Below, piece after piece: positions 20,081 to 33,571 of a DNA stretch of 39,793 nucleotides. Position 1 is the first letter of the stretch. Every line of letters starts with the position of its first letter. Source of the DNA: Escherichia phage Ro45lw. Both the position numbers and the translations under genes were made by a program. The stretch is from the sequence record NC_048136.1; one strand, written 5' to 3'. A model generated the notes under the pieces. The model saw only the letters and a list, made by a program, of their open reading frames with translations, was not told the DNA's origin and searched no databases.

Positions 20081-20962
20081 ATGTCTCAATCAGTTTATGC
20101 CGAGTTCGGCGTTAGCCCTAATGCAATCACTGGTTCCGTTGAGGACCTGAACGAACACCAGCGGTCTATGCTTGAGCAGGACGTAGCAGTTCGCGATGGC
20201 GATGACGCTATTACCTTCAAGCAACTGGAAGCCGAGAACGAAGAGGCTACCGAAGAAGACGAAAACGTCGAAGAGACTGAAGGTGACGATACTGAAGGTA
20301 ACGACGATGAGTCTGATACCGAAGGTGAGGACCAAGAGTTTGTCGAACTGGGTGAAACTCCTAAAGAGCTGACCGAAAGTGTCACCGCTCTTAACGAGAA
20401 CGAAGCTGCCTTCGACGACATGGTGTCTGCTGCTGTAGAGGCTGGCAAGGTCACTGCCGATGACATCGCCGCTATTAAGGCCGAATATACCTCTAAAGGT
20501 GAGCTGTCCGAGGCATCCTATGCTAAGCTGGCTGAAGCTGGTTACACAAAGCGCTTCGTCGATTCATTCGTCCGTGGTCAGGAAGCTCTGGCTGAGCAGT
20601 ATGCTGCTGGTGTGGTTCGCTACGCTGGTGGTGCTGAGCAGTTTAACCGCATCCTGTCACACCTTGAGTCCAACGACCCGTCAACTCGTGAAGCACTGGA
20701 AGCTGCTATCGTTCGTAAGGACATTGCGACTACCAAAGCTCTGCTGAATCTGGCTGGCAAGACTCTGGGTAAAGCTGTAGGCGTTAAACCTCAGCGTACC
20801 ATCACCACTCAGGCCAAACCTGTGGTCGCACCTAAGGCTCCTCAGACCGAAGCATTCAGCTCTAAGGCTGACATGATTAAGGCTATGAGTGACCCGCGCT
20901 ACCTGCGTGACGCTAAGTACACGATGGAAGTTCGCGCTAAGGTTGCAGCGTCTAGTCTGTAA
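20081..20962 (+). CDS. 9: Capsid assembly (scaffolding) protein
   Basis: Acidic N-terminal half and conserved C-terminal region typical of T7 gp9; RBS AAGGAG. Confidence 0.85.
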   Translation: MSQSVYAEFGVSPNAITGSVEDLNEHQRSMLEQDVAVRDGDDAITFKQLEAENEEATEEDENVEETEGDDTEGNDDESDTEGEDQEFVELGETPKELTESVTALNENEAAFDDMVSAAVEAGKVTADDIAAIKAEYTSKGELSEASYAKLAEAGYTKRFVDSFVRGQEALAEQYAAGVVRYAGGAEQFNRILSHLESNDPSTREALEAAIVRKDIATTKALLNLAGKTLGKAVGVKPQRTITTQAKPVVAPKAPQTEAFSSKADMIKAMSDPRYLRDAKYTMEVRAKVAASSL

Positions 20963-20966
20963 GAGG

Positions 20967-20989
20967 ACTAAACTATCACTATAGGGAGA
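20967..20989 (+). promoter_or_regulatory. Phage-RNAP promoter (phi10-like), full consensus with GGGAGA start
   Basis: CTAAACTATCACTATAGGGAGACC; leader can form a GGGAGACC/GGTTTCCC 5' stem as in the T7 phi10 leader. Confidence 0.85.
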
Positions 20990-21092
20990 CCAAGGGTATG
21001 ACTCAAGGTTTCCCTGTAACTTCAGTCCATACGGATTGGGCATAGCGAAGTAACTAAATTTATTTCTTTCATTCGAATAGGAGAATTATCAT

Positions 21093-22142
21093 ATGGCAAA
21101 CGTTCCGGGTCAGAAAATTGGTGCAGACCAAGGTAAGGGCAAATCTAGTGCAGACCAGCTCGCACTGTTCCTTAAGGTCTTCGCTGGTGAAGTCCTGACA
21201 GCTTTCACTCGCCGCTCTGTTACCGCTGACAAACATATTGTCCGCACCATTCAGAACGGTAAGTCCGCACAGTTCCCGGTAATGGGTCGCACCTCCGGTG
21301 TGTATCTTGCTCCCGGTGAGCGCCTGAGCGATAAGCGCAAGGGTATTAAACACACTGAGAAGGTTATCACCATTGATGGTCTGCTGACCGCTGACGTGAT
21401 GATTTTCGACATCGAAGACGCTATGAACCACTATGACGTGGCTGGCGAGTATTCCAACCAGCTAGGTGAGGCTCTGGCTATCGCTGCGGATGGCGCGGTA
21501 CTGGCTGAGATGGCGATTCTGTGTAACCTCCCGGCTGCATCCGACGAGAACATCGCGGGTCTGGGCAAGGCGTCCGTTCTGGAAGTTGGTACTAAAGCCG
21601 ACCTGAACACTCCAGCCAAGCTGGGTGAAGCGATCATTGGTCAACTGACCATCGCACGTGCTAAGCTGACTGCCAACTACGTTCCTGCTGGCGACCGCTA
21701 CTTCTATACTACGCCTGACAACTACTCCGCGATTCTGGCGGCCCTGATGCCTAACGCTGCTAACTACGCTGCGCTGATTGACCCTGAGACGGGCAACATC
21801 CGTAACGTAATGGGCTTCGTTGTGGTAGAAGTTCCTCACCTGACTCAGGGTGGTGCTGGCGAGACCCGTGGTGACGATGGTATCTCCATTGCTTCCGGTC
21901 AGAAACACGCATTCCCGGCTACCTCCAGCTCTACCGTTAAGGTTGCTCTGGACAACGTTGTGGGTCTGTTCTCTCACCGTTCTGCTGTCGGTACTGTTAA
22001 GCTGCGTGACTTGGCGCTGGAACGTGACCGCGACGTCGATGCTCAGGGCGACCTGATTGTCGGTAAGTACGCTATGGGTCACGGCGGTCTGCGTCCAGAA
22101 GCGGCAGGCGCACTGGTTTTCACAGCAGCGTCAGCGGGCTAA
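21093..22142 (+). CDS. 10A: Major capsid protein (10A form)
   Basis: Strong identity to T7 gp10A (LALFLKVF, KSAQFPV, KHTEKVITIDGLLTADV, AAVGTVKLRDLALER, KYAMGHGGLRPEAAG). Confidence 0.95.
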   Translation: MANVPGQKIGADQGKGKSSADQLALFLKVFAGEVLTAFTRRSVTADKHIVRTIQNGKSAQFPVMGRTSGVYLAPGERLSDKRKGIKHTEKVITIDGLLTADVMIFDIEDAMNHYDVAGEYSNQLGEALAIAADGAVLAEMAILCNLPAASDENIAGLGKASVLEVGTKADLNTPAKLGEAIIGQLTIARAKLTANYVPAGDRYFYTTPDNYSAILAALMPNAANYAALIDPETGNIRNVMGFVVVEVPHLTQGGAGETRGDDGISIASGQKHAFPATSSSTVKVALDNVVGLFSHRSAVGTVKLRDLALERDRDVDAQGDLIVGKYAMGHGGLRPEAAGALVFTAASAG

Positions 22143-22405
22143 CGACCTTTAAGGCCCTCTCTACAGAGGGTCCTACCTTAGAGACATACAGTTCTACGGT
22201 GGGGACCAGCCTGAAGGTTGACTTCCCTGAGCTTTCAGATGTGACCGATTGGTCGCTGCTTGACGTGATTACGCCTGATGGTGTTAGTTACTCCCGTAGA
22301 ACCAACAGTCTCTACTTCAAGGCCACCTCTGGCGTGGAAGGTCTGGTGATTGTTGGGTATGACGGTTCGCCTGTGCGTTCCTTCAACGTATCTTTCACAA
22401 ACTAA
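22115..22405 (+). other. 10B: Predicted -1 frameshift site G GTT TTC and about 94-codon extension giving a minor capsid 10B form
   Basis: Heptamer GGTTTTC at 22115-22121, 7 codons before the 10A stop; the -1 frame is open from there to TAA 22403-22405, immediately before the terminator. Confidence 0.55.
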
Positions 22406-22409
22406 TTGA

Positions 22410-22450
22410 AACCCCTTGGGTGCCTTCGGGTGCTTGAGGGGTTTTTTTTC
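22410..22450 (+). terminator. Late transcription terminator (T-phi-like)
   Basis: AACCCCTTGGGTGCC TTCG GGTGCTTGAGGGGTT hairpin with G-U pairs followed by TTTTTTTT. Confidence 0.8.
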
Positions 22451-22463
22451 TTAAGGAGGGCTT

Positions 22464-23030
22464 ATGGCTCAGTACATTCCGCTCAACGCTAATGACGACT
22501 TGGATGCTGTTAACGATATGCTGGCTGCTATCGGTGAACCAGCAGTCCTACAGCTTGACGAAGGTAACGCAGACGTATCGAACGCTCAGCGCATCCTGCA
22601 TCGAGTAAATCGTCAGGTCCAAGCTAAAGGCTGGAACTTTAACATCAATGAGGCCGCTGTGCTAACACCAGATGTCCAAGACCAAAGGATTCGATTCCTG
22701 CCGTCTTACCTCCGGGTCATGACTGCGGGTGCGACCAGTTACTACAGCAACATGGGTGGCTATCTCTATGACCTCAGCACTCAGTCCACGACCTTCACGT
22801 CTGCGATTACCGTCGAGCTGGTGGAGATGAAACCGTTCGCTGAGATGCCTGTGGTATTCCGTGACTACATCGTTACCAAGGCAAGCCGAGAGTTCAACGC
22901 TAAGTTCTTCGGAAGCCCGGAGTCTGAAGCCTATCTGAGGGAGCAGGAAGCAGAACTGTATCAGCAGGTGATGGAGTACGAGATGGATACCGGGCGCTAC
23001 AACATGATGTCTGACATCGGTCGAGACTAA
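22464..23030 (+). CDS. 11: Tail tubular protein A
   Basis: AVNDMLAAIGEP, ANAxRIL, GWNFNI, MEYEMD, GRYNM similar to T7 gp11; RBS AAGGAGG. Confidence 0.9.
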   Translation: MAQYIPLNANDDLDAVNDMLAAIGEPAVLQLDEGNADVSNAQRILHRVNRQVQAKGWNFNINEAAVLTPDVQDQRIRFLPSYLRVMTAGATSYYSNMGGYLYDLSTQSTTFTSAITVELVEMKPFAEMPVVFRDYIVTKASREFNAKFFGSPESEAYLREQEAELYQQVMEYEMDTGRYNMMSDIGRD

Positions 23031-26955: not shown

Positions 26956-29238
26956 ATGGCTAGTAATATCGAATCAGCTTTAGCTAACCGGACTATGGGC
27001 CGTGGTCGCGCTCCGGGTAAAGCTATCAGTGTCGACTACCAGGCGGCTAGCGTTCAGGGGCAGACTGGGGACTCCGGTCTTGCCCGTGCGCTCACTAACT
27101 TCGTTGAGTCGGGTACAGGTCTGTACAAGCAGTTCCAAGAGAAGGCCAAGAACCTTGGGGATGAGAGGTCTAACGAGATTATTCGTAAGCTGACTCCCCA
27201 GCAAAGGCGTGAGGCCATCCAGAACGGCACTCTGCTGTATCAGGACGACCCATACGCAATGGAGGCACTGAAGGTCAAGACTGGACGAAACGCTGCCTAT
27301 GCGGTAGACGATGAGATTAACGTCAAGATTCAGAACGGTGAGTTCCGCACCCGTCAGGATATGGAGGAGTATCGCCACCAGCGACTTCAGGATGCCGCTA
27401 AGTCCTACGCTGATGAGGCTGGTATTAATCCTAACGATGAGCACTTCCAGCGTGGATTTAACGCAGACATCACGGACCGTAACGTAGCCATCTATGGGTC
27501 GTTCAATAAGTATTTCTCTAAGCAGTCCGAGAATACTGCTATGCTGAACACCCGTGTAGAGCTGAACTCGTTCCTGAATGATGGGGACCTGATGCGCTCA
27601 CCTGAGGCAGGCAAGTCTTTCATGGCGTACCTTCGCGATGGGCTGACCACTGCCGCCATTCCGTCTGACCAGAGAGCGACTGAAGTTATCTCTCAGACGG
27701 TACGGGACGCAATCCAGAAGTCTGGTGGGGCTAACTTCCTACAGCAGATTCGACAAGAGCGCATCACCCTTAACGGAGTGGACGCCACAGTCGAGGAGCT
27801 TGTCGGGCCGGAGGTCTTCAACGCCGCTCTGATTGAGGCCCAAGGAACCGAGTACAAGCTGGTGGCTAAGTATCAGGAAGACCTAGCGTTGGGAGTTCAG
27901 TCTGCCCTGCTTCAGGATGACCCGACTATTGGTCTGGCTCAAATCCAGAAACTCAAGGCTCAGAACAACCAGCTCCAGCCGGGTGAGGAGATGACACCAC
28001 AGCGTCAGATGCTCATCAATGCTGAGGCCAGTCTCTTAGAGACCGTGAAGCGCAAGTCCGCTGAGCAGGCCAAGGAGAACGTTAAGCTCATCCAGACGCA
28101 GAACAAGCAACTGGTCATCGACCAAGTGTATCAGAGACGACTGGCTGGGGACAACGTGTCCACCAACTATGAGGACCTTCCGGTATCTGAGGCTACTGGT
28201 GAGTTTAAGCGTTCGGACATGAACAACTACGCTATGGGTAAACTACAGCAGATTGACCAGATGGACATCCCGCAAGCTGCGAAGGATGCACAGAAAGTCG
28301 CCCTGCTGCGAGCTGATACCAATAACGGTCCATTCCGTAACGCCTACCAGACGTTGACTCAGGACGCTGCTGGTGAGTGGCAAGCTGCGGTCATCCGTGG
28401 TCAGTACGACCCAGACAAGATGCAACGCTTTGAGTCCCTGCGCCGGGCGTACACTCAGGACCCTTCCAGCTTTGCGGCCCTCTACCCTGACCAAGCCCAA
28501 CTGTTCACCACGTTCGACCAGATGGACAAGATGGGTCTGGACCCTCAGACGATGATTGACGCTGACAAACAGGCTGCTAGTCAGTCCCGTGAGATGCGCA
28601 TTGAGTCCGACAAGGCGTGGCAGGAGCTGAAGAACGACTCGAAGAACAAGGACCTCTCGCGTCTGCCGACGAGTCTGGACGCCAGTGCTCGTAAGGTCTG
28701 GGACTCTTGGTACTACCGCACAGGTAACGCTGATGCAGCTACCCAGAACACCCAGAAGTGGTTGAACGAGAACACCGTGACTTTCAGTGATGAGGGTCAG
28801 GACGGGAAGTCCATTGGCATGGTCTCCAAGCATCAACTGATGGTCGGGGACAACCCTGAGTCATGGCAGGTGGGTCGAGACATTATCGACACCGCTCGTC
28901 AGCAGCTCATCAAGACTAACCCTTGGGTCGTGAACTCTCAGCTCTCCGTGGTTGAGCAGAACGGCTCGGTCTTCCTCCAAGACGCTACCGGGACTATACG
29001 AATCAAGTATGATAAGGAAGTCGTTGGTAAACTGTACCGTGAACAGCAGAAGAAAGCTGAGGATAAAGCCTACGCTGAGGCCGAACGTAAAGCCAACACC
29101 CGCGCTCGTATTGTCGAGACTAAAGCGGCTGGTGATAAGCGGCGGAATGAGCGAGAAGCTAATGTCCGTGACCGGGGCGGTATGTACAAAGACGTCTCAC
29201 TGGAGGGTATCGCAAACGTACTAATCGGTAAGGAGTAA
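26956..29238 (+). CDS. 15: Internal virion protein gp15-like
   Basis: LGDERSNEIIRKLTPQQRREAIQNGTLLYQDDPYAMEALKVKTGRNAAY is nearly identical to T7 gp15; collinear throughout. Confidence 0.9.
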   Translation: MASNIESALANRTMGRGRAPGKAISVDYQAASVQGQTGDSGLARALTNFVESGTGLYKQFQEKAKNLGDERSNEIIRKLTPQQRREAIQNGTLLYQDDPYAMEALKVKTGRNAAYAVDDEINVKIQNGEFRTRQDMEEYRHQRLQDAAKSYADEAGINPNDEHFQRGFNADITDRNVAIYGSFNKYFSKQSENTAMLNTRVELNSFLNDGDLMRSPEAGKSFMAYLRDGLTTAAIPSDQRATEVISQTVRDAIQKSGGANFLQQIRQERITLNGVDATVEELVGPEVFNAALIEAQGTEYKLVAKYQEDLALGVQSALLQDDPTIGLAQIQKLKAQNNQLQPGEEMTPQRQMLINAEASLLETVKRKSAEQAKENVKLIQTQNKQLVIDQVYQRRLAGDNVSTNYEDLPVSEATGEFKRSDMNNYAMGKLQQIDQMDIPQAAKDAQKVALLRADTNNGPFRNAYQTLTQDAAGEWQAAVIRGQYDPDKMQRFESLRRAYTQDPSSFAALYPDQAQLFTTFDQMDKMGLDPQTMIDADKQAASQSREMRIESDKAWQELKNDSKNKDLSRLPTSLDASARKVWDSWYYRTGNADAATQNTQKWLNENTVTFSDEGQDGKSIGMVSKHQLMVGDNPESWQVGRDIIDTARQQLIKTNPWVVNSQLSVVEQNGSVFLQDATGTIRIKYDKEVVGKLYREQQKKAEDKAYAEAERKANTRARIVETKAAGDKRRNEREANVRDRGGMYKDVSLEGIANVLIGKE

Positions 29239-29243
29239 TAACA

Positions 29244-29693
29244 ATGAAGAACGGAACAGCCAGTGAGAGACTGGCACGTCTTTCGACTGTAGAAGTAACT
29301 GGCTGTGTCCGATTCACTGGAGGACTCAACAGTAGTGGTTATGGAAACCTATGGGTCGATGGTAAGACAGTTGGAGCGCATCGTGTTGCCTATGAGTTAG
29401 CGAACGGTCCGATACCTAAGGGTAGCGTACTTCGTCACACTTGTGACAACAGGTACTGCGTGAATCCTGAACATTTAGTCTTGGGAACACATCGTGAAAA
29501 CATGGAGGATATGACCAAGCGAGGCCGTCAGGCGAGAGGCTCTAAGATCAGCACGTGTGTGCTGTCCGAGGAGGACGTAAGGTCTATACGCTCAAGTGAT
29601 AAAAGTGGTGTGGAACTGGCACAGATTTTCGGAATCTCACCAGTAACTATTAGTCGAATCAAGAGGAGATTAACATGGCAGCACGTGGAGTGA
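29244..29693 (+). CDS. HNH endonuclease (free-standing, putative homing endonuclease), 149 aa
   Basis: SGYG...GPIPKGSVLRHTCDNRYCVNPEHL; paralog of the 18013 ORF; RBS AAGGAG; sits between genes 15 and 16, where T7 has no gene. Confidence 0.85.
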   Translation: MKNGTASERLARLSTVEVTGCVRFTGGLNSSGYGNLWVDGKTVGAHRVAYELANGPIPKGSVLRHTCDNRYCVNPEHLVLGTHRENMEDMTKRGRQARGSKISTCVLSEEDVRSIRSSDKSGVELAQIFGISPVTISRIKRRLTWQHVE

Positions 29694-32600
29694 GAAATAA
29701 TAACATAGGAAATATCCGCATCTCTAAAGACCAGTGGGAAGGTGCTACCGGGGACGATGGTGCTTTCGTAACCTTCGATAGTCCTGACTCCGGTGTCCGC
29801 GCTCTGGCGAAGAACCTGATGTCTTATGGTAGGCAGGGCTACGACTCTATCGAGAAGATTATCAACCGTTGGGCACCCCCGAACGAGAACGACACAAAGT
29901 CCTACATCGACTCGGTGGTATCCGCTACTGGCATCCCTGCGACCCAAAGTCTCGACCTGTCCAACCCTGATGTCTTGGCCTCTCTGTCTGAGGCTATCGG
30001 CTACCATGAGACTGGCTCCCGGTATGATCCTGAAGTCTATAAGACTGGAGTCTCTCGCGCCTTAAGCGGTGCGGGAGGAATCACCCCAAAGACTCCACCA
30101 GTAAGCGCTAACGTCTTCGACGCACTGACGGAGGGACTGAAAGCTAAGCCTAAAGTCTCCCTCGGTGAGAACCTTCCGGGCGTTACTGGTATGAACATTG
30201 AAGGTCAAGCGCCGGAGGCACCCAATGAGTCCTTCGGTGAGATGTTCTATAAGTCCACTGGCGAAACGCTGGACCAACGAGAGGACCGCTCTACTTGGTT
30301 CGGCTTTGGAGGAGCTGCTGAGGCCGAGGTGAAGAACTCACTGTTAGGCGTGGCTGTCCGCGCTGGTCAGACCGAGGACTCGCTGGATGTGATTGGCGAT
30401 GTGTTTAACCCTACCCGCTGGAATGACCACAAGTGGTCCCGCGAGGAGTTAGACCAGATTCGTAACGCTGGGGTATTACCTCAGTATTACGGAGTCATCA
30501 CAGGCGGTTCACCTCAGAACCTGACCGAGCTTATTAACTTGGCGCTGGAGAACCAGAAGTTAGACGCTGAGAAGGCTAAGGCCGGGACTGGCGCTCAACT
30601 GGCGGCTGGTGTGATTGGAGCTGGTGTAGACCCTCTGACTTACGTCCCGGTAGCAGGTCAGGTAGGTAAAGGAGGCAAGCTGGTAAACAAGATGTTCACG
30701 GTGGCTGCACAATCTGGCGCTCTTGCTGGTGGGTCTGAACTGCTGCGTACCTCGGTCGCGGGCGGCGATGCTCACGTTGCTGAAGCTGTAATGGGTGGCG
30801 CTCTGTTCGCTGGTGGGATGACTGCCATAGCTGATGGCATCGGCAAGGCCTTAGGTCGCTCCACCAATGAGTTCGCCGGACCTGCTACTCGACTGGAAGC
30901 CCGTGAGACTGCCCGTAATGTTGACGGTCAGGACCTTTCCCGTCTGCCAATCCGCGAGGGCGAGGAGACCTTCAGTCACCAAGGCGTTAAGTTCGCTGAC
31001 GTACCGAACGAGCCGGGAAGTGTTCGACTGGAAGATGGTTCAATCCTGATTGGCGAGAACCCACTGAACCCTAAGACACGTCAAGTCTTTGACGAGGTGA
31101 TTGAGCCTGAACGTGCTGCTGCTGGTATCAACCTTGGTGGACTCACTGAGATTGGCCTGAAGCTCCTGAGGTCTGAGAACCCTGAGATTCGCGGACTTGC
31201 CGCTGACTTGGTGCGCTCACCTACAGGTATGCAGTCCGGTGCCTCCGGTAAGATTGGTACTACGGCTTCAGACGTATTCGAGAGACTTCGTGCAGTGGAT
31301 CATCGGTTCTACAACGACATCGACGATGCGGTGACTGAGGCCCTGAAGGACCCATACTTCCAGACCAACTTCAACCGTGACACTGGTGCTTTCCGTCAGG
31401 ACATCTACCAGCGTGTGGCTCTGGCTATCGAGGACGGAAGCGGGAACCTGAAGTCTGAGCTGACTCCGGGCGAACTGAAGGTATATGACCTGCTGAAGAA
31501 CCAGTTTGACGCTAAGCGTGAGATGATGGAGAACCCTGCGATGTTTGGTCGGGTGGACGCTAAGTCTATCTTCCCCGGTAGCCGATTCAAGGGTACTTAC
31601 GTACCTCACGTTTATAGCAACCAGATGAAGCAACTGTTTATCAAGGAGCTGGGAAGTCCTGAGGCGCTACAGGAGGCAATCAAGAAGTCGTGGCTCACCA
31701 GCTATGCGTCAAGACCTGAGGTCAAAGCGCGGGTGGATGAGGCCCTGATGGAAGCAGACCCTAACCTTACTCCAGAAGGACTTTCTGCTGCGGTGGATAA
31801 GTACGCCAATGATAAGGCTTACGGTATCTCTCACACCGACCTCTTCGAGCGCTCATCTGTCATGGAAGAGAACATCAACGGTCTGGTGGGTCTGGAGAAC
31901 AACAACTTCCTTGAGGCCCGTAACCTGTTCGATAGCGATATGTCTATAATCCTGCCAAACGGTCAGCCGTTCAGTGTGAACAGCCTCCGCGAGTGGGACA
32001 TGGATAAGATTGTTCCGGCGTACAACCGTCGAGTCAATGGGGACATTGCTATCATGGCTGGGACCGGGAAGACTACGAAGGAGATGAAGGACGCAGTAGA
32101 GACCCTGATGAACCGTGCGGGTGATGACGGTAAGCTGAAGGGTGAAGTCTCTACATTGCGTGACACCCTGAAGATTCTGACTGGTCGTGCTCGACGTGAT
32201 GGTGCGGACGATGCTGCTTGGAACACTGTGTTGAGGACCATGACGGACTTATCGTTCTTCGCTAAGAATGCCTACATGGGTGTACAGAACCTTACTGAGA
32301 TTGGCGGGATGCTGGCTCGTGGTAACGTCCGTGCGCTGCTGCATGGAGTCCCGATGTTCCGTGACCTAGCCTTCCGTAACAAGAAGGTAGGGGCCTCAGA
32401 GATTAAGGACCTGCACAATGTCATCTTCGGTAAGGAACTGGACGACTCAATCCGTCCGTCCAAACAGGATGTCATCGACCGTCTGCGAGCTTATAGTGAC
32501 CTGAGTAAACCTGTGGCTACTGCTTTAGGTTCCGCCAAGTATTACACTGGCGAGCTTGCAGTCCGCTCCCCGTTTACGAAAGTCCTGAACGGGACGACGA

Positions 32601-33571
32601 ACTATCTGCTGGATGCTGGGCGTCAGGGCTTCTTGTCTGACATCGTGGAACACAGCCTGACCGGAAGTAAGCGTAAGTTTGATGACCGCTGGTTGAAGAC
32701 CGCTGGTATCTCAGACGAACAGTGGAAGGGCATTAAGTCCCTCATCCGTGAGTCCGTGACTCGTGGTCCAGACGGGAAGTACACCATCAAGGACAAGAAG
32801 GCGTTTAGTCAGGACCCAAGGTCTATGGACCTCTGGCGTATGGGTGACACCATCGCTGACGAGACACTTCTCCGTCCGCACAAGCTGAGCAACATGGATG
32901 CCAAGGCGTATGGACCTCTGGCGAAGACTGTCTTGCAGTTTAAGAACTTCGTCATCAAGTCCATCAACGGTCGAACCATGCGTACCTTCTACAACGCCAC
33001 CAAGAACAACCGAGCGATGGACGCTGCACTGTCAACGGTTATGTCTATGGGTCTGGCTGGAATGTACTACATGGCTCAGGCGCACATCAAGGCTTACTCT
33101 ATGCAGGACGGTCGTGACCGCGAGTACCTCAAGCAGGCCTTGAACCCGACTATGATTGGCTATGCGGCCCTGTCCCGTAGCTCCCACCTCGGTGGACCTC
33201 TTGGGGTAGCCAACATTCTGGGTGGCATCGCTGGGTATGAGGACACTAAGATGCTCCGCTCGTCTATCCTTCCGCGCTCACCTACCGAGAAGCCTGAACG
33301 TGCCATTACTTATGGTGCTGCCAAGAGCGACCCGGTGATGGGACTGGTGGGTAACTTCCTTGAGCAGGTTCCAGCTTTCGGCTACGCTGCTAACGTTGGC
33401 GCTTCGGCTTACAACTTGGCTGGCTACCTCAAGGCTGACACCCGTGTGAACGAACGAGACTACATGACCGGGATGTATAACACCTTCCGTGAACTGGTTC
33501 CGAACGACCCAATAACTCAGAAGCTCCTACTGGGAACATTTGAGGAACAGGGCATTCACATTAAGGACTAA
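29675..33571 (+). CDS. 16: Internal virion protein gp16-like (ejectosome core protein) with non-T7 N-terminal domain
   Basis: From about aa 133 (GGITPK...STWFGFGGAAEAEV...RLEARETARN...GTYVPHVY...RPEVKARVDE) collinear with T7 gp16; the first ~130 aa lack the T7 transglycosylase motifs. Confidence 0.9.
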   Translation: MAARGVRNNNIGNIRISKDQWEGATGDDGAFVTFDSPDSGVRALAKNLMSYGRQGYDSIEKIINRWAPPNENDTKSYIDSVVSATGIPATQSLDLSNPDVLASLSEAIGYHETGSRYDPEVYKTGVSRALSGAGGITPKTPPVSANVFDALTEGLKAKPKVSLGENLPGVTGMNIEGQAPEAPNESFGEMFYKSTGETLDQREDRSTWFGFGGAAEAEVKNSLLGVAVRAGQTEDSLDVIGDVFNPTRWNDHKWSREELDQIRNAGVLPQYYGVITGGSPQNLTELINLALENQKLDAEKAKAGTGAQLAAGVIGAGVDPLTYVPVAGQVGKGGKLVNKMFTVAAQSGALAGGSELLRTSVAGGDAHVAEAVMGGALFAGGMTAIADGIGKALGRSTNEFAGPATRLEARETARNVDGQDLSRLPIREGEETFSHQGVKFADVPNEPGSVRLEDGSILIGENPLNPKTRQVFDEVIEPERAAAGINLGGLTEIGLKLLRSENPEIRGLAADLVRSPTGMQSGASGKIGTTASDVFERLRAVDHRFYNDIDDAVTEALKDPYFQTNFNRDTGAFRQDIYQRVALAIEDGSGNLKSELTPGELKVYDLLKNQFDAKREMMENPAMFGRVDAKSIFPGSRFKGTYVPHVYSNQMKQLFIKELGSPEALQEAIKKSWLTSYASRPEVKARVDEALMEADPNLTPEGLSAAVDKYANDKAYGISHTDLFERSSVMEENINGLVGLENNNFLEARNLFDSDMSIILPNGQPFSVNSLREWDMDKIVPAYNRRVNGDIAIMAGTGKTTKEMKDAVETLMNRAGDDGKLKGEVSTLRDTLKILTGRARRDGADDAAWNTVLRTMTDLSFFAKNAYMGVQNLTEIGGMLARGNVRALLHGVPMFRDLAFRNKKVGASEIKDLHNVIFGKELDDSIRPSKQDVIDRLRAYSDLSKPVATALGSAKYYTGELAVRSPFTKVLNGTTNYLLDAGRQGFLSDIVEHSLTGSKRKFDDRWLKTAGISDEQWKGIKSLIRESVTRGPDGKYTIKDKKAFSQDPRSMDLWRMGDTIADETLLRPHKLSNMDAKAYGPLAKTVLQFKNFVIKSINGRTMRTFYNATKNNRAMDAALSTVMSMGLAGMYYMAQAHIKAYSMQDGRDREYLKQALNPTMIGYAALSRSSHLGGPLGVANILGGIAGYEDTKMLRSSILPRSPTEKPERAITYGAAKSDPVMGLVGNFLEQVPAFGYAANVGASAYNLAGYLKADTRVNERDYMTGMYNTFRELVPNDPITQKLLLGTFEEQGIHIKD

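What the first reader, a model, noticed from the sequence alone, without database searches (positions are those of the whole stretch)
22115..22405. Conserved slippery heptamer predicts a capsid 10B product by -1 frameshifting
G GTT TTC lies 7 codons before the 10A stop. The -1 frame is open from the heptamer for about 94 codons and ends at TAA 22403-22405, directly before the terminator hairpin. T7 makes a minor capsid 10B by -1 frameshifting at the end of gene 10. The extension here would be longer than in T7.
Basis: partly seen in the sequence, partly recalled or inferred. Interest (0 to 1): 0.55.

Follow-up and report, generated by a model that had tools for sequence, protein, structure and literature searches.

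The report
Frameshifted capsid protein with Ig-like tail
This T7-like phage very probably makes a second, longer capsid protein when ribosomes slip back one base at the same GGTTTTC site that phage T7 uses, which adds a 94-residue tail ending in an antibody-like (Ig-like) domain; it is a known kind of mechanism that hundreds of related genome records annotate wrongly as a separate small gene.

Summary
G_GTT_TTC lies at 22115-22121 in the frame of capsid gene 10A (21093-22142). The -1 frame is open for 94 codons from the heptamer to TAA 22403-22405, two bases before a strong terminator hairpin (22408-22449).

- The heptamer is identical to T7's proven 10B shift site.
- It is the only slippery motif in the 76-nt stretch where a shift could join the two frames.
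- Every related locus checked (more than 60: Kayfunavirus, Przondovirus/K11, Pectobacterium phages, two more distant lineages) keeps the same arrangement. An NGTTTTY motif is followed by a -1 frame that stays open into a homologous domain.
- The extension is under purifying selection in the -1 frame only (dN/dS 0.14-0.21).
- It has no conserved start codon or ribosome-binding site of its own.
- Its first predicted beta-strand lies upstream of the only candidate start.

The predicted product is a 437-aa, 46-kDa 10B. It consists of a roughly 20-residue flexible linker and a seven-strand Ig-like beta-sandwich. This domain has no Pfam family and no detectable sequence similarity to T3's Big_2 tail or T7's short tail.

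A stem-loop at 22153-22173 is favoured by codon choice. Its role in frameshifting is unproven.

No protein-level evidence exists. This is a new member of a known kind, of modest interest.

The parts
20967..20989 (+). Phage RNA-polymerase promoter (phi10 equivalent) that drives gene 10
   Evidence: There is an exact CACTATAGGGAGA core at 20977-20989. It occupies the same position as phi10 in the T7, T3 and K11 records.
21093..22142 (+). Gene 10A, major capsid protein (349 aa, 36.4 kDa), read in the zero frame
   Evidence: ORF. Pfam Gp10A-like, E 3.5e-105. It is 98% identical in DNA to the Citrobacter phage SH4 capsid region. It matches solved T7-type capsid chains.
22115..22121 (+). Slippery heptamer G_GTT_TTC, the proposed -1 frameshift site
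   Evidence: Read directly from the sequence. It is identical to the T7 site. The Val codon GTT is invariant in 45 of 45 unique related sequences, while neighbouring Ala and Gly codons vary at the third position. It is the only slippery motif in the permissible stretch 22067-22142.
22121..22405 (+). -1 frame extension of 10B (94 codons plus TAA); the fused product is 437 aa, 45.98 kDa
   Evidence: Translation; mass. In the Kayfunavirus set, 58 third-position variable sites against 24 and 18 at positions 1 and 2. Synonymous fraction of codon differences: 0.61 in this frame against 0.10-0.17 in the other two. dN/dS 0.14. tblastn homologues in 453 phage records.
22121..22180 (+). Linker (extension residues 1-20); the first 7 codons overlap the end of 10A
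   Evidence: AlphaFold pLDDT is below 50 for residues 1-17. This is the most variable part of the protein alignment, and its indels are always multiples of three. It is still under purifying selection (dN/dS 0.18).
22181..22402 (+). Ig-like beta-sandwich domain (extension residues 21-94)
22153..22173 (+). Stem-loop GGCCCUCU-CUAC-AGAGGGUCC, about 32 nt 3' of the heptamer and 11 nt 3' of the 10A stop
   Evidence: Predicted alone and in the alignment of close relatives. The linker RNA is more stable than 98.9% of synonymous recodings (z -2.45). An 18-bp hairpin sits at the equivalent place in K11-like phages, with two compensatory base-pair changes. Its function was not shown.
22408..22449 (+). 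Terminator hairpin and U-tract (Tphi equivalent); it contains CCCC at 22412-22415
   Evidence: The AACCCCTTGGG arm is shared with the T7, K1F, K11 and Pectobacterium phage terminators. In T7 a CCCC in this terminator is reported to affect frameshifting (PMC5009743).
22464..23030 (+). Gene 11, tail tubular protein A (downstream boundary; it has its own AAGGAGG ribosome-binding site at 22453-22459)
   Evidence: ORF. Pfam Tube, E 1.6e-46.

Best explanation
A minority of ribosomes translating gene 10 slip back one nucleotide at G_GUU_UUC (22115-22121). The A-site tRNA-Phe re-pairs from UUC to UUU, and the P-site tRNA-Val re-pairs from GUU to GGU. These ribosomes miss the 10A stop at 22140 and read 94 further codons to 22405.

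The result is 10B (437 aa), which shares residues 1-343 with 10A. It adds a flexible linker of about 20 residues and a roughly 74-residue Ig-like beta-sandwich. 10B is expected to co-assemble with 10A, so that a fraction of capsid subunits display the domain on the outside of the head. There it most plausibly acts as a weak accessory adhesion module, and it is not essential.

Shown here: the sequence anatomy, its conservation, the coding signature, the predicted fold, and the absence of an independent start.

Inferred: that frameshifting actually occurs, its efficiency, incorporation into virions, and the function of the domain.
For: 1. The site is identical to the experimentally established T7 site (PMC5009743; Slootweg et al. 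2006, PMC1635266). In Kluyvera phage Kvp1, mass spectrometry showed a 10B made by a -1 shift at TTTTCA (PMC2579914).

2. All 62 capsid loci carrying the homologous domain have NGTTTTC, with the -1 frame open from the heptamer into the domain: 59 GGTTTTC, 2 AGTTTTC, 1 CGTTTTC. Extension lengths are 91-103 codons, so every indel is a multiple of three. Two more divergent lineages keep the same arrangement, L070 with GGTTTTC and L071 with T_GTT_TTT.

3. The GTT codon is invariant in 45 of 45 unique sequences. GTT is only 38.5% of Val codons in these capsid genes, and flanking codons vary synonymously. T3, which shifts at C_CCA_AAG, has GTG CTC at the equivalent place.

4. The coding signature is confined to the -1 frame.
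- Variable sites by codon position are 24/18/58.
- The synonymous fraction of codon differences is 0.61 and 0.58, against 0.10-0.17 in the other frames.
- dN/dS is 0.14 (Kayfunavirus set) and 0.21 (Przondovirus set); the linker alone gives 0.18-0.25.

5. There is no independent initiation signal.
- The window's extension has no ATG.
- The first GTG is codon 27 and has no Shine-Dalgarno sequence.
- Candidate starts differ between lineages.
- Gene callers give 64- to 87-aa versions of the same ORF.
- The first predicted beta-strand (residues 22-26) lies upstream of codon 27.

6. The fold is an Ig-like sandwich behind a disordered linker. T3's 10B likewise carries an Ig-like C-terminal extension (PMC5009743). 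Fusions longer than about 50 aa cannot sit on every T7 capsid subunit (PMC1635266), which explains why a 94-aa domain would be added through a low-frequency shift.
Against: - There are no protein data for this phage or, as far as I could find, for any phage with this domain. The virion mass spectrometry of the closest relative, SH4, searched only predicted proteins, so it could not have detected the extension (PMC4925675).
- In a reporter, GGTTTTC alone gave less than 1% shifting, against about 10% in wild-type T7 (PMC1635266). Context therefore matters, and the stimulatory context here is unknown.
- The only supported local hairpin starts about 32 nt after the heptamer, well beyond the usual 5-9 nt spacer. 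No significant complementarity to the terminator was found.
- P-site re-pairing is imperfect (GUU to GGU), and worse still in the AGTTTTC and CGTTTTC variants.
- One close relative, ZG49, has lost half of the domain, so the function is dispensable at least in culture.
Confidence: 0.85

Rival explanations
1. The downstream ORF is an independent small gene (annotated 'gp10.1', 'hypothetical protein' or 'minor capsid protein' in relatives). It would be translated from its own start, GTG 22199 in this window, giving a free 68-aa protein that may decorate the capsid.
For: - Most deposited relatives annotate it this way.
- A paper on Pectobacterium phages treats it as a separate putative minor capsid gene (PMC7693777).
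- Free Ig-like decoration proteins do exist in T7-like phages, for example Vibrio phage Peru-2 P2_50 (PMC13320782).
Against: - No Shine-Dalgarno sequence precedes GTG 22199, and the ORF has no ATG at all.
- The candidate start position and codon differ between lineages, and annotated lengths range from 64 to 87 aa.
- The stretch between the heptamer and those starts is open in every lineage, has only in-frame indels, and shows purifying selection.
- Starting at codon 27 would remove the first predicted beta-strand.
- Gene 11 directly downstream has a strong AAGGAGG ribosome-binding site, so the lack of one here is not a general property of the phage.
Confidence: 0.07
2. The extension is reached by a route other than ribosomal slippage at the heptamer. 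Options are transcriptional slippage by the phage RNA polymerase on the T-run, or a -1 shift elsewhere in the overlap 22067-22142.
For: - The two frames can be joined anywhere between 22067 and 22142.
- The heptamer's first base varies (G, A, C or T) while the T-run is constant. The essential element may therefore be the U_UUC hexamer, not the full heptamer, as was suggested for Kvp1 (PMC2579914).
Against: - The run has only four T residues. From my own knowledge, that is far shorter than the homopolymer runs known to give productive transcriptional slippage.
- There is no other X_XXY_YYZ-like motif in the stretch.
- The same site is an established ribosomal shift site in T7 (PMC5009743).
Confidence: 0.04
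3. The open -1 frame is a non-expressed evolutionary remnant, or the region is conserved mainly for RNA-level reasons (3' UTR structure, terminator context) and not as protein.
For: - One isolate (ZG49) tolerates loss of the distal half.
- T7 10B is dispensable (PMC11482910).
- The linker RNA is more structured than its synonymous recodings.
Against: - dN/dS is 0.13-0.21 across the domain.
- Protein-level homology persists at 40-50% identity across genera where the DNA has diverged.
- A confident compact fold is predicted.
- The frame is open in more than 60 lineages.
Confidence: 0.04

Closest known systems
Bacteriophage T7 gene 10A/10B, -1 programmed ribosomal frameshift at G_GUU_UUC
   Same: - The heptamer is identical, in the same register and at the same place: a few codons before the 10A stop, after the conserved ...RPEAAGA(L/V)VF.
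- The -1 ORF ends just before the Tphi-type terminator, which carries the same AACCCCTTGGG arm.
- The gene order phi10 promoter, gene 10, terminator, gene 11 is the same.
   Different: - The extension is 94 codons here against 56 in T7, counted from the heptamer.
- It is a folded Ig-like domain, whereas T7's counterpart extension is described as not an Ig-like domain (PMC5009743).
- The 10A stop lies 6 sense codons after TTC here, against 3 in T7.
- Efficiency and stimulators have not been measured here.
Bacteriophage T3 / phiYeO3-12 10B, -1 frameshift that adds an Ig-like (Big_2-type) domain
   Same: - A C-terminal Ig-like domain of similar size is added to a fraction of capsid subunits by a -1 shift. 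T3 10B is 433 aa against 437 aa here.
- It is expected to be a surface-exposed accessory module (PMC5009743; PMC13320782).
   Different: - T3 uses a different shift site, C_CCA_AAG at a Lys codon (PMC2579914).
- BLASTP finds no local alignment between the two extensions.
- This domain matches no Pfam family, Big_2 included.
Kayfunavirus K1F / Penshu1 10B
   Same: They belong to the same genus and have the same GGTTTTC site. Penshu1 has an annotated joined -1 frameshift CDS (PMC6753287).
   Different: Their extension is the short T7-type tail of 48 codons, containing an EETLTP...AARTRAAN stretch, and not the Ig-like domain. The tail module has therefore been exchanged within one genus behind an unchanged shift site.
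Przondovirus (Klebsiella phages K11, KP32) and Pectobacterium-phage 'minor capsid protein' ORFs
   Same: - They carry a homologous domain (40-50% identity) in the same -1 arrangement behind NGTTTTC.
- A hairpin sits at the equivalent place in the linker.
   Different: - The linker sequence and length differ (96-103 codons).
- The K11-type hairpin is much longer (18 bp) and closer to the heptamer (19 nt).
- The Pectobacterium phages have A_GTT_TTC.

Membership tests
T7-type gene 10 -1 programmed frameshift (10A/10B) | Slippery X_XXY_YYZ-like heptamer (G_GUU_UUC in T7), in the zero-frame register, near the 3' end of the major capsid gene | tested here: met
   GGTTTTC lies at 22115-22121 in the correct register. 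It is identical to T7's. It is the only such motif in the permissible stretch.
T7-type gene 10 -1 programmed frameshift (10A/10B) | -1 frame open from the shift site, overlapping the end of 10A and extending beyond its stop | tested here: met
   94 codons, 22121-22402. The same holds in all 62 domain-bearing relatives and in two more distant lineages.
T7-type gene 10 -1 programmed frameshift (10A/10B) | Extension evolves as protein-coding sequence in the -1 frame, and the shift site is conserved beyond what the protein requires | tested here: met
   dN/dS 0.14-0.21. There is a third-position excess of variable sites. GTT is invariant in 45 of 45 sequences while neighbouring codons vary synonymously.
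T7-type gene 10 -1 programmed frameshift (10A/10B) | No independent translation start for the extension | tested here: met
   There is no ATG, no Shine-Dalgarno sequence before GTG codon 27, and no start conserved across lineages.
T7-type gene 10 -1 programmed frameshift (10A/10B) | Two capsid products with a common N-terminus, both present in virions (about 10% 10B in T7) | not testable with these tools
   This needs SDS-PAGE, western blotting or mass spectrometry. The published SH4 virion proteomics used a database without the extension.
T7-type gene 10 -1 programmed frameshift (10A/10B) | 3' stimulatory context (in T7, a distal region that includes CCCC of the terminator) | tested here: inconclusive
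   The terminator with CCCC is present at 22412-22415. No significant pairing with the region next to the shift site was found. A codon-choice-supported hairpin exists, but it starts 32 nt downstream.
Ig-like domains appended to phage structural proteins by frameshifting (Fraser et al. 2006 class; T3 10B) | Ig-like beta-sandwich fold at the C-terminus of a structural protein | tested here: met
Ig-like domains appended to phage structural proteins by frameshifting (Fraser et al. 2006 class; T3 10B) | Sequence membership in one of the recognised families (Big_2, I-set, FN3) | tested here: not met
   There is no Pfam hit above noise and no BLASTP alignment to the T3 extension. A profile search of 1.84 billion proteins finds only weak matches (E 6e-13 to 1e-4) to multi-repeat proteins, most of which carry Pfam Big_2, Big_1, BACON or He_PIG domains.
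Ig-like domains appended to phage structural proteins by frameshifting (Fraser et al. 2006 class; T3 10B) | Weak binding to carbohydrates or cell surfaces | not testable with these tools
   This is inferred from the literature on such domains only.
Stand-alone capsid decoration / minor capsid gene | Own start codon and ribosome-binding site, conserved among homologues | tested here: not met
   The domain's first strand lies upstream of the candidate start.

The most novel reading that the evidence does not exclude
The stem-loop at 22153-22173 has counterparts at the equivalent linker position in related groups. Compensatory base changes were seen only in the K11-like group. Together with the terminator that abuts the -1 stop, this stem-loop could be part of a distal, non-canonical signal that sets the 10B:10A ratio. 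If so, it would be the same unexplained long-range effect reported for T7 gene 10, here made tractable by natural variation across hundreds of genomes.
Probability: 0.15. Interest if true: 0.6.

Novelty: new member of a known kind. Interest (0 to 1): 0.35.

Why it matters
1. Annotation. At least 453 deposited phage genomes carry this extension by tblastn. In every record I opened that carries it, it is unannotated or annotated as a separate small 'hypothetical', 'minor capsid' or even 'major head' protein with arbitrary starts. The correct feature would be a joined -1 frameshift CDS.

2. Therapy candidates. Many of these are therapeutic-candidate phages of Klebsiella, Salmonella Typhi, E. coli, Enterobacter and Cronobacter. 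An exposed Ig-like domain on the capsid is relevant to adsorption, mucus adherence, immunogenicity and display engineering.

3. Evolution of the capsid tail. Three unrelated tails sit at the same position in Studiervirinae: the T7-type short tail, the T3-type Big_2 domain, and this domain. Two of them occur within the single genus Kayfunavirus behind an identical shift site. This is a clean natural example of module exchange downstream of a fixed recoding signal.

4. Frameshift signals. The conserved linker hairpin offers comparative material for the unresolved question of what stimulates T7-type gene 10 frameshifting.

Tried and rejected
- Upstream Shine-Dalgarno-like stimulator, as in dnaX. 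The only AGG lies 6 nt upstream, and it varies (AGG, TGG, GGG) among relatives because it sits in Ala-Gly-Ala codons. Rejected.
- Long-range pairing between the 30 nt after the heptamer and the 5' arm of the terminator, prompted by the T7 'CCCC' report. RNAduplex energies were no better than shuffles in any of nine lineages, T7 included. Not supported.
- One common hairpin alignable across all groups. RNAalifold on a mixed alignment found only 3 pairs. The hairpins coincide in position but not in sequence, and outside the window's group and the K11 group they are not individually significant (z -1.1 to -1.7).
- Folding 22115-22215 as a whole. It is not more stable than dinucleotide shuffles (z -0.98).
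- Rfam scan of 20900-22600. It returned only a chance hit on the terminator.
- Search for natural in-frame capsid-domain fusions. None appeared among the 120 best clusters (all 64-87 aa) or in the exhaustive profile search.
- Solved structures containing the domain. There are none. The nearest capsid chain (9vvq, named 'Minor capsid protein') is only 347 aa.
- The primary T7 papers (Condron et al. 1991, two papers; Sipley et al. 1991). They are not held in the library. Statements about them come second-hand from PMC5009743 and PMC1635266.
- L021 and L022, found by a peptide-pattern match. They are unrelated high-GC contigs with no capsid context. Discarded.
Full report
WHAT THE WINDOW IS
The 39.8-kb window is a complete-looking genome of a T7-like phage of the genus Kayfunavirus. 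The gene 10 region is 98% identical to Citrobacter phage SH4. It is 95-97% identical to Shigella, Cronobacter, Enterobacter and Salmonella phages (taxonomy).

The local order is:
- scaffold gene 9 (20081-20962; Pfam Phage_T7_Capsid);
- a phage promoter with the core CACTATAGGGAGA at 20977-20989;
- capsid gene 10A (21093-22142; Pfam Gp10A-like, E 3.5e-105);
- a 321-nt stretch with no annotated gene;
- tail tubular gene 11 (22464-23030; Pfam Tube).

OBSERVATION
Gene 10A ends ...CTG GTT TTC ACA GCA GCG TCA GCG GGC TAA. G_GTT_TTC therefore occupies 22115-22121 in the slippery register, and TTC is the seventh codon before the stop.

After a -1 slip the next codon is CAC at 22121. The frame runs for 94 sense codons to TAA 22403-22405.

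Two bases later a 17-bp hairpin begins, followed by eight T residues (22408-22449; -25.2 kcal/mol, z -4.8).

An open run of this length is unlikely by chance.
- 1.8% of composition-preserving shuffles give an open frame.
- The probability is 1.6e-4 if one uses the 8.9% stop-codon frequency of the -1 frame inside gene 10, where the longest open run is 25 codons.
- The -1 frame opens at 22067. Any shift must therefore occur within 22067-22142, and GGTTTTC is the only slippery motif there.

COMPARISON WITH T7, T3 AND K1F
- T7 has the identical GGTTTTC three sense codons before its 10A stop, and an annotated joined 10B CDS. The review by Atkins et al. lists G_GU as the X_XX of T7 gene 10 (PMC5009743).
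- T3 shifts at C_CCA_AAG into an 86-residue tail, giving a 10B of 433 aa. The length of the extension here is therefore not unusual for the subfamily.
- K1F, the type species of the window's genus, and Penshu1 have GGTTTTC followed by a 48-codon tail containing an EETLTP...AARTRAAN stretch. Penshu1's 10B is annotated as a frameshift product (PMC6753287).

RELATIVES
tblastn with the 94-residue extension finds it in 453 phage records. These include a subset of Kayfunavirus (77-98% identity), Przondovirus/K11-like Klebsiella phages (40-49%), and Pectobacterium phages (about 50%).

I fetched loci from the viral collections and annotated records and scanned each.
- All 62 capsid loci that carry the domain have NGTTTTC at the homologous position: 59 GGTTTTC, 2 AGTTTTC, 1 CGTTTTC.
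- In all of them the -1 frame is open from the heptamer into the domain.
- Extension lengths are 91-103 codons, so every linker indel is a multiple of three.
- Two more divergent members found by an exhaustive profile search keep the same layout: L070 with GGTTTTC, and a metagenomic contig, L071, with T_GTT_TTT.
- The Val codon of the heptamer is GTT in 45 of 45 unique sequences. GTT makes up only 38.5% of Val codons in these capsid genes, and the neighbouring Ala and Gly codons vary freely at the third position.

CODING SIGNATURE
- Among 13 unique Kayfunavirus-type sequences, variable sites fall 24/18/58 on codon positions 1/2/3 of the -1 frame.
- Codon differences are synonymous in 61% of cases in that frame, against 10-17% in the other two. 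The Przondovirus set gives 58% against 12-16%.
- Nei-Gojobori dN/dS is 0.14 (Kayfunavirus set) and 0.21 (Przondovirus set).
- The linker between the 10A stop and the folded domain gives 0.18-0.25 on its own. It too is translated.

NO INDEPENDENT START
- The window's extension contains no ATG.
- The first GTG is codon 27 (22199), preceded by GAGACATACAGTTCT, which has no Shine-Dalgarno sequence.
- Candidate starts fall at different codons in different lineages.
- Database proteins for this ORF are 64, 68, 73, 75, 76, 83, 84 or 87 aa long, depending on what the gene caller could find.
- Records name it 'hypothetical protein', 'minor capsid protein' or 'major head protein', and none of those I opened that carry the long extension has a joined CDS.
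- Evseev et al. describe it as a separate putative minor capsid gene with no T7 homologue (PMC7693777).

THE PRODUCT
The fusion is 437 aa and 45.98 kDa: residues 1-343 of 10A plus 94 residues.

AlphaFold, using a 36-sequence alignment, gives a disordered stretch (residues 1-17, pLDDT below 50) followed by a seven-strand beta-sandwich (residues 21-94, pLDDT about 90).

The first strand (residues 22-26) precedes the GTG at codon 27. This is a further argument against a stand-alone 68-aa protein.

At sequence level:
- it matches no Pfam family;
- it belongs to PHROG 7473, of unknown function;
- BLASTP finds no alignment to T3's extension;
- in a search of 1.84 billion representatives it reaches only its own narrow family, plus weak hits to multi-repeat proteins, most of which carry Pfam Big_2, Big_1, BACON or He_PIG domains.

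No solved structure contains it.

MECHANISM AND FUNCTION (INFERRED)
By analogy with T7 (about 10% 10B; PMC1635266) and Kvp1 (10B shown by mass spectrometry; PMC2579914), a minority of ribosomes slip at U_UUC with partial P-site re-pairing.

Capsid C-terminal fusions are displayed on the T7 surface. Fusions longer than about 50 aa are not tolerated on every subunit (PMC1635266). That gives a rationale for delivering a 94-aa domain through a low-frequency shift.

T7 10B is dispensable (PMC11482910), and T3's Ig-like tail is discussed as an accessory adhesion module (PMC13320782). Consistent with dispensability, Escherichia phage ZG49 has the distal half of the domain and the terminator replaced by a segment that carries a small hydrophobic ORF found upstream of gene 11 in other Kayfunaviruses.

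RNA CONTEXT
A hairpin, GGCCCUCU-CUAC-AGAGGGUCC (22153-22173), lies about 32 nt after the heptamer and 11 nt after the 10A stop.

The linker RNA is more stable than 98.9% of synonymous recodings here (z -2.45). It is more stable than all 1000 recodings in K11-like phages (z -4.5 to -4.7).

The K11 group has an 18-bp hairpin at the equivalent linker position, 19 nt from the heptamer. Two of its pairs show compensatory changes: AU to GC in 14 sequences and CG to UA in 11.

Other groups have their own hairpins at the same place, but these are not individually significant.

The spacing is too long for a classical stimulator. I found no significant pairing with the terminator, no conserved upstream Shine-Dalgarno-like element, and no Rfam family.

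GGTTTTC alone gave less than 1% shifting in a reporter, against about 10% in T7. A CCCC in the T7 terminator is reported to matter. The same CCCC-bearing terminator abuts the -1 stop here and in every lineage checked. The stimulatory context therefore remains an open question.

VERDICT
This is a new member of a known kind: a T7-type gene 10 frameshift that carries an Ig-like tail of a previously unclassified sequence family. It is widespread and systematically mis-annotated. Interest is modest; the main open question is the RNA context of the shift.

Noticed in passing
window 29244-29693 (+): A 149-aa ORF with an HNH homing-endonuclease domain (Pfam HNH_3, E 2.3e-16) sits between internal virion genes 15 (26956-29238) and 16 (29675-33571) and overlaps the start of gene 16. 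In the published SH4 coordinates, genes 15 and 16 are only 6 nt apart, so this looks like a mobile insertion.
   Followed up: partly
L017 (Escherichia phage ZG49, KX669227) 1655-1790, equivalent to window ~22280-22455: The distal half of the Ig-like domain and the whole terminator are replaced by about 120 nt. This segment carries a GAGGA ribosome-binding site and a 29-aa hydrophobic ORF (MFYLLTALGLFVSFWAIILLTGPCSPYDR), in the same frame as the extension. The same small segment lies upstream of gene 11 in other Kayfunaviruses (vB_EcoP_F, KM02, LNA3).
   Followed up: partly
L005 (K1F) 2159-2310; L066 (Penshu1) 1152-2326: Within the single genus Kayfunavirus, the same GGTTTTC site is followed either by a 48-codon T7-type tail or by the 94-codon Ig-like tail. 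The tail is therefore an exchangeable module downstream of a fixed recoding signal.
   Followed up: partly
L008, L020 (Pectobacterium phages) ~1399; L065 ~1414; L071 ~392: Variant heptamers A_GTT_TTC, C_GTT_TTC and T_GTT_TTT keep the U-run but change the first base. P-site re-pairing in the -1 frame may therefore be dispensable, with the U_UUY hexamer as the core signal.
   Followed up: no
window 22140-22154 and equivalent positions in relatives (alignment A6): A nucleotide motif, TAA-N3-ACC-Y-TTA-R, starts at the 10A stop codon and is conserved across otherwise divergent linkers: CTAACGACCTTTAAG, GTAACAACCCTTAAG, GTAAATACCTTTAGT. Many K11-like phages have two in-frame TAA stops there. The reason for the conservation is unknown.
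   Followed up: no
L006-L065, K11-like loci, about 19-62 nt after the heptamer (alignment A4 columns 37-79): An 18-bp hairpin lies in the linker-coding RNA, with two compensatory base-pair changes. It is far more stable than any synonymous recoding (z about -4.6).
   Followed up: partly
L008 (Pectobacterium phage MA6, MN327636) 452-1782: The deposited record has no capsid CDS at all in this stretch, and the zero-frame ORF upstream of the heptamer is only 205 codons, against about 346 in its close relative L020. The capsid gene may be interrupted in this assembly.
   Followed up: no
PDB 9vvq chain I; GenBank records for Ro103C3lw, IME278, KKP_3263: The 347- to 349-aa zero-frame capsid protein (10A) is itself labelled 'minor capsid protein' in a solved structure entry and in several genome records. 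This naming confusion is propagated by similarity-based annotation.
   Followed up: no
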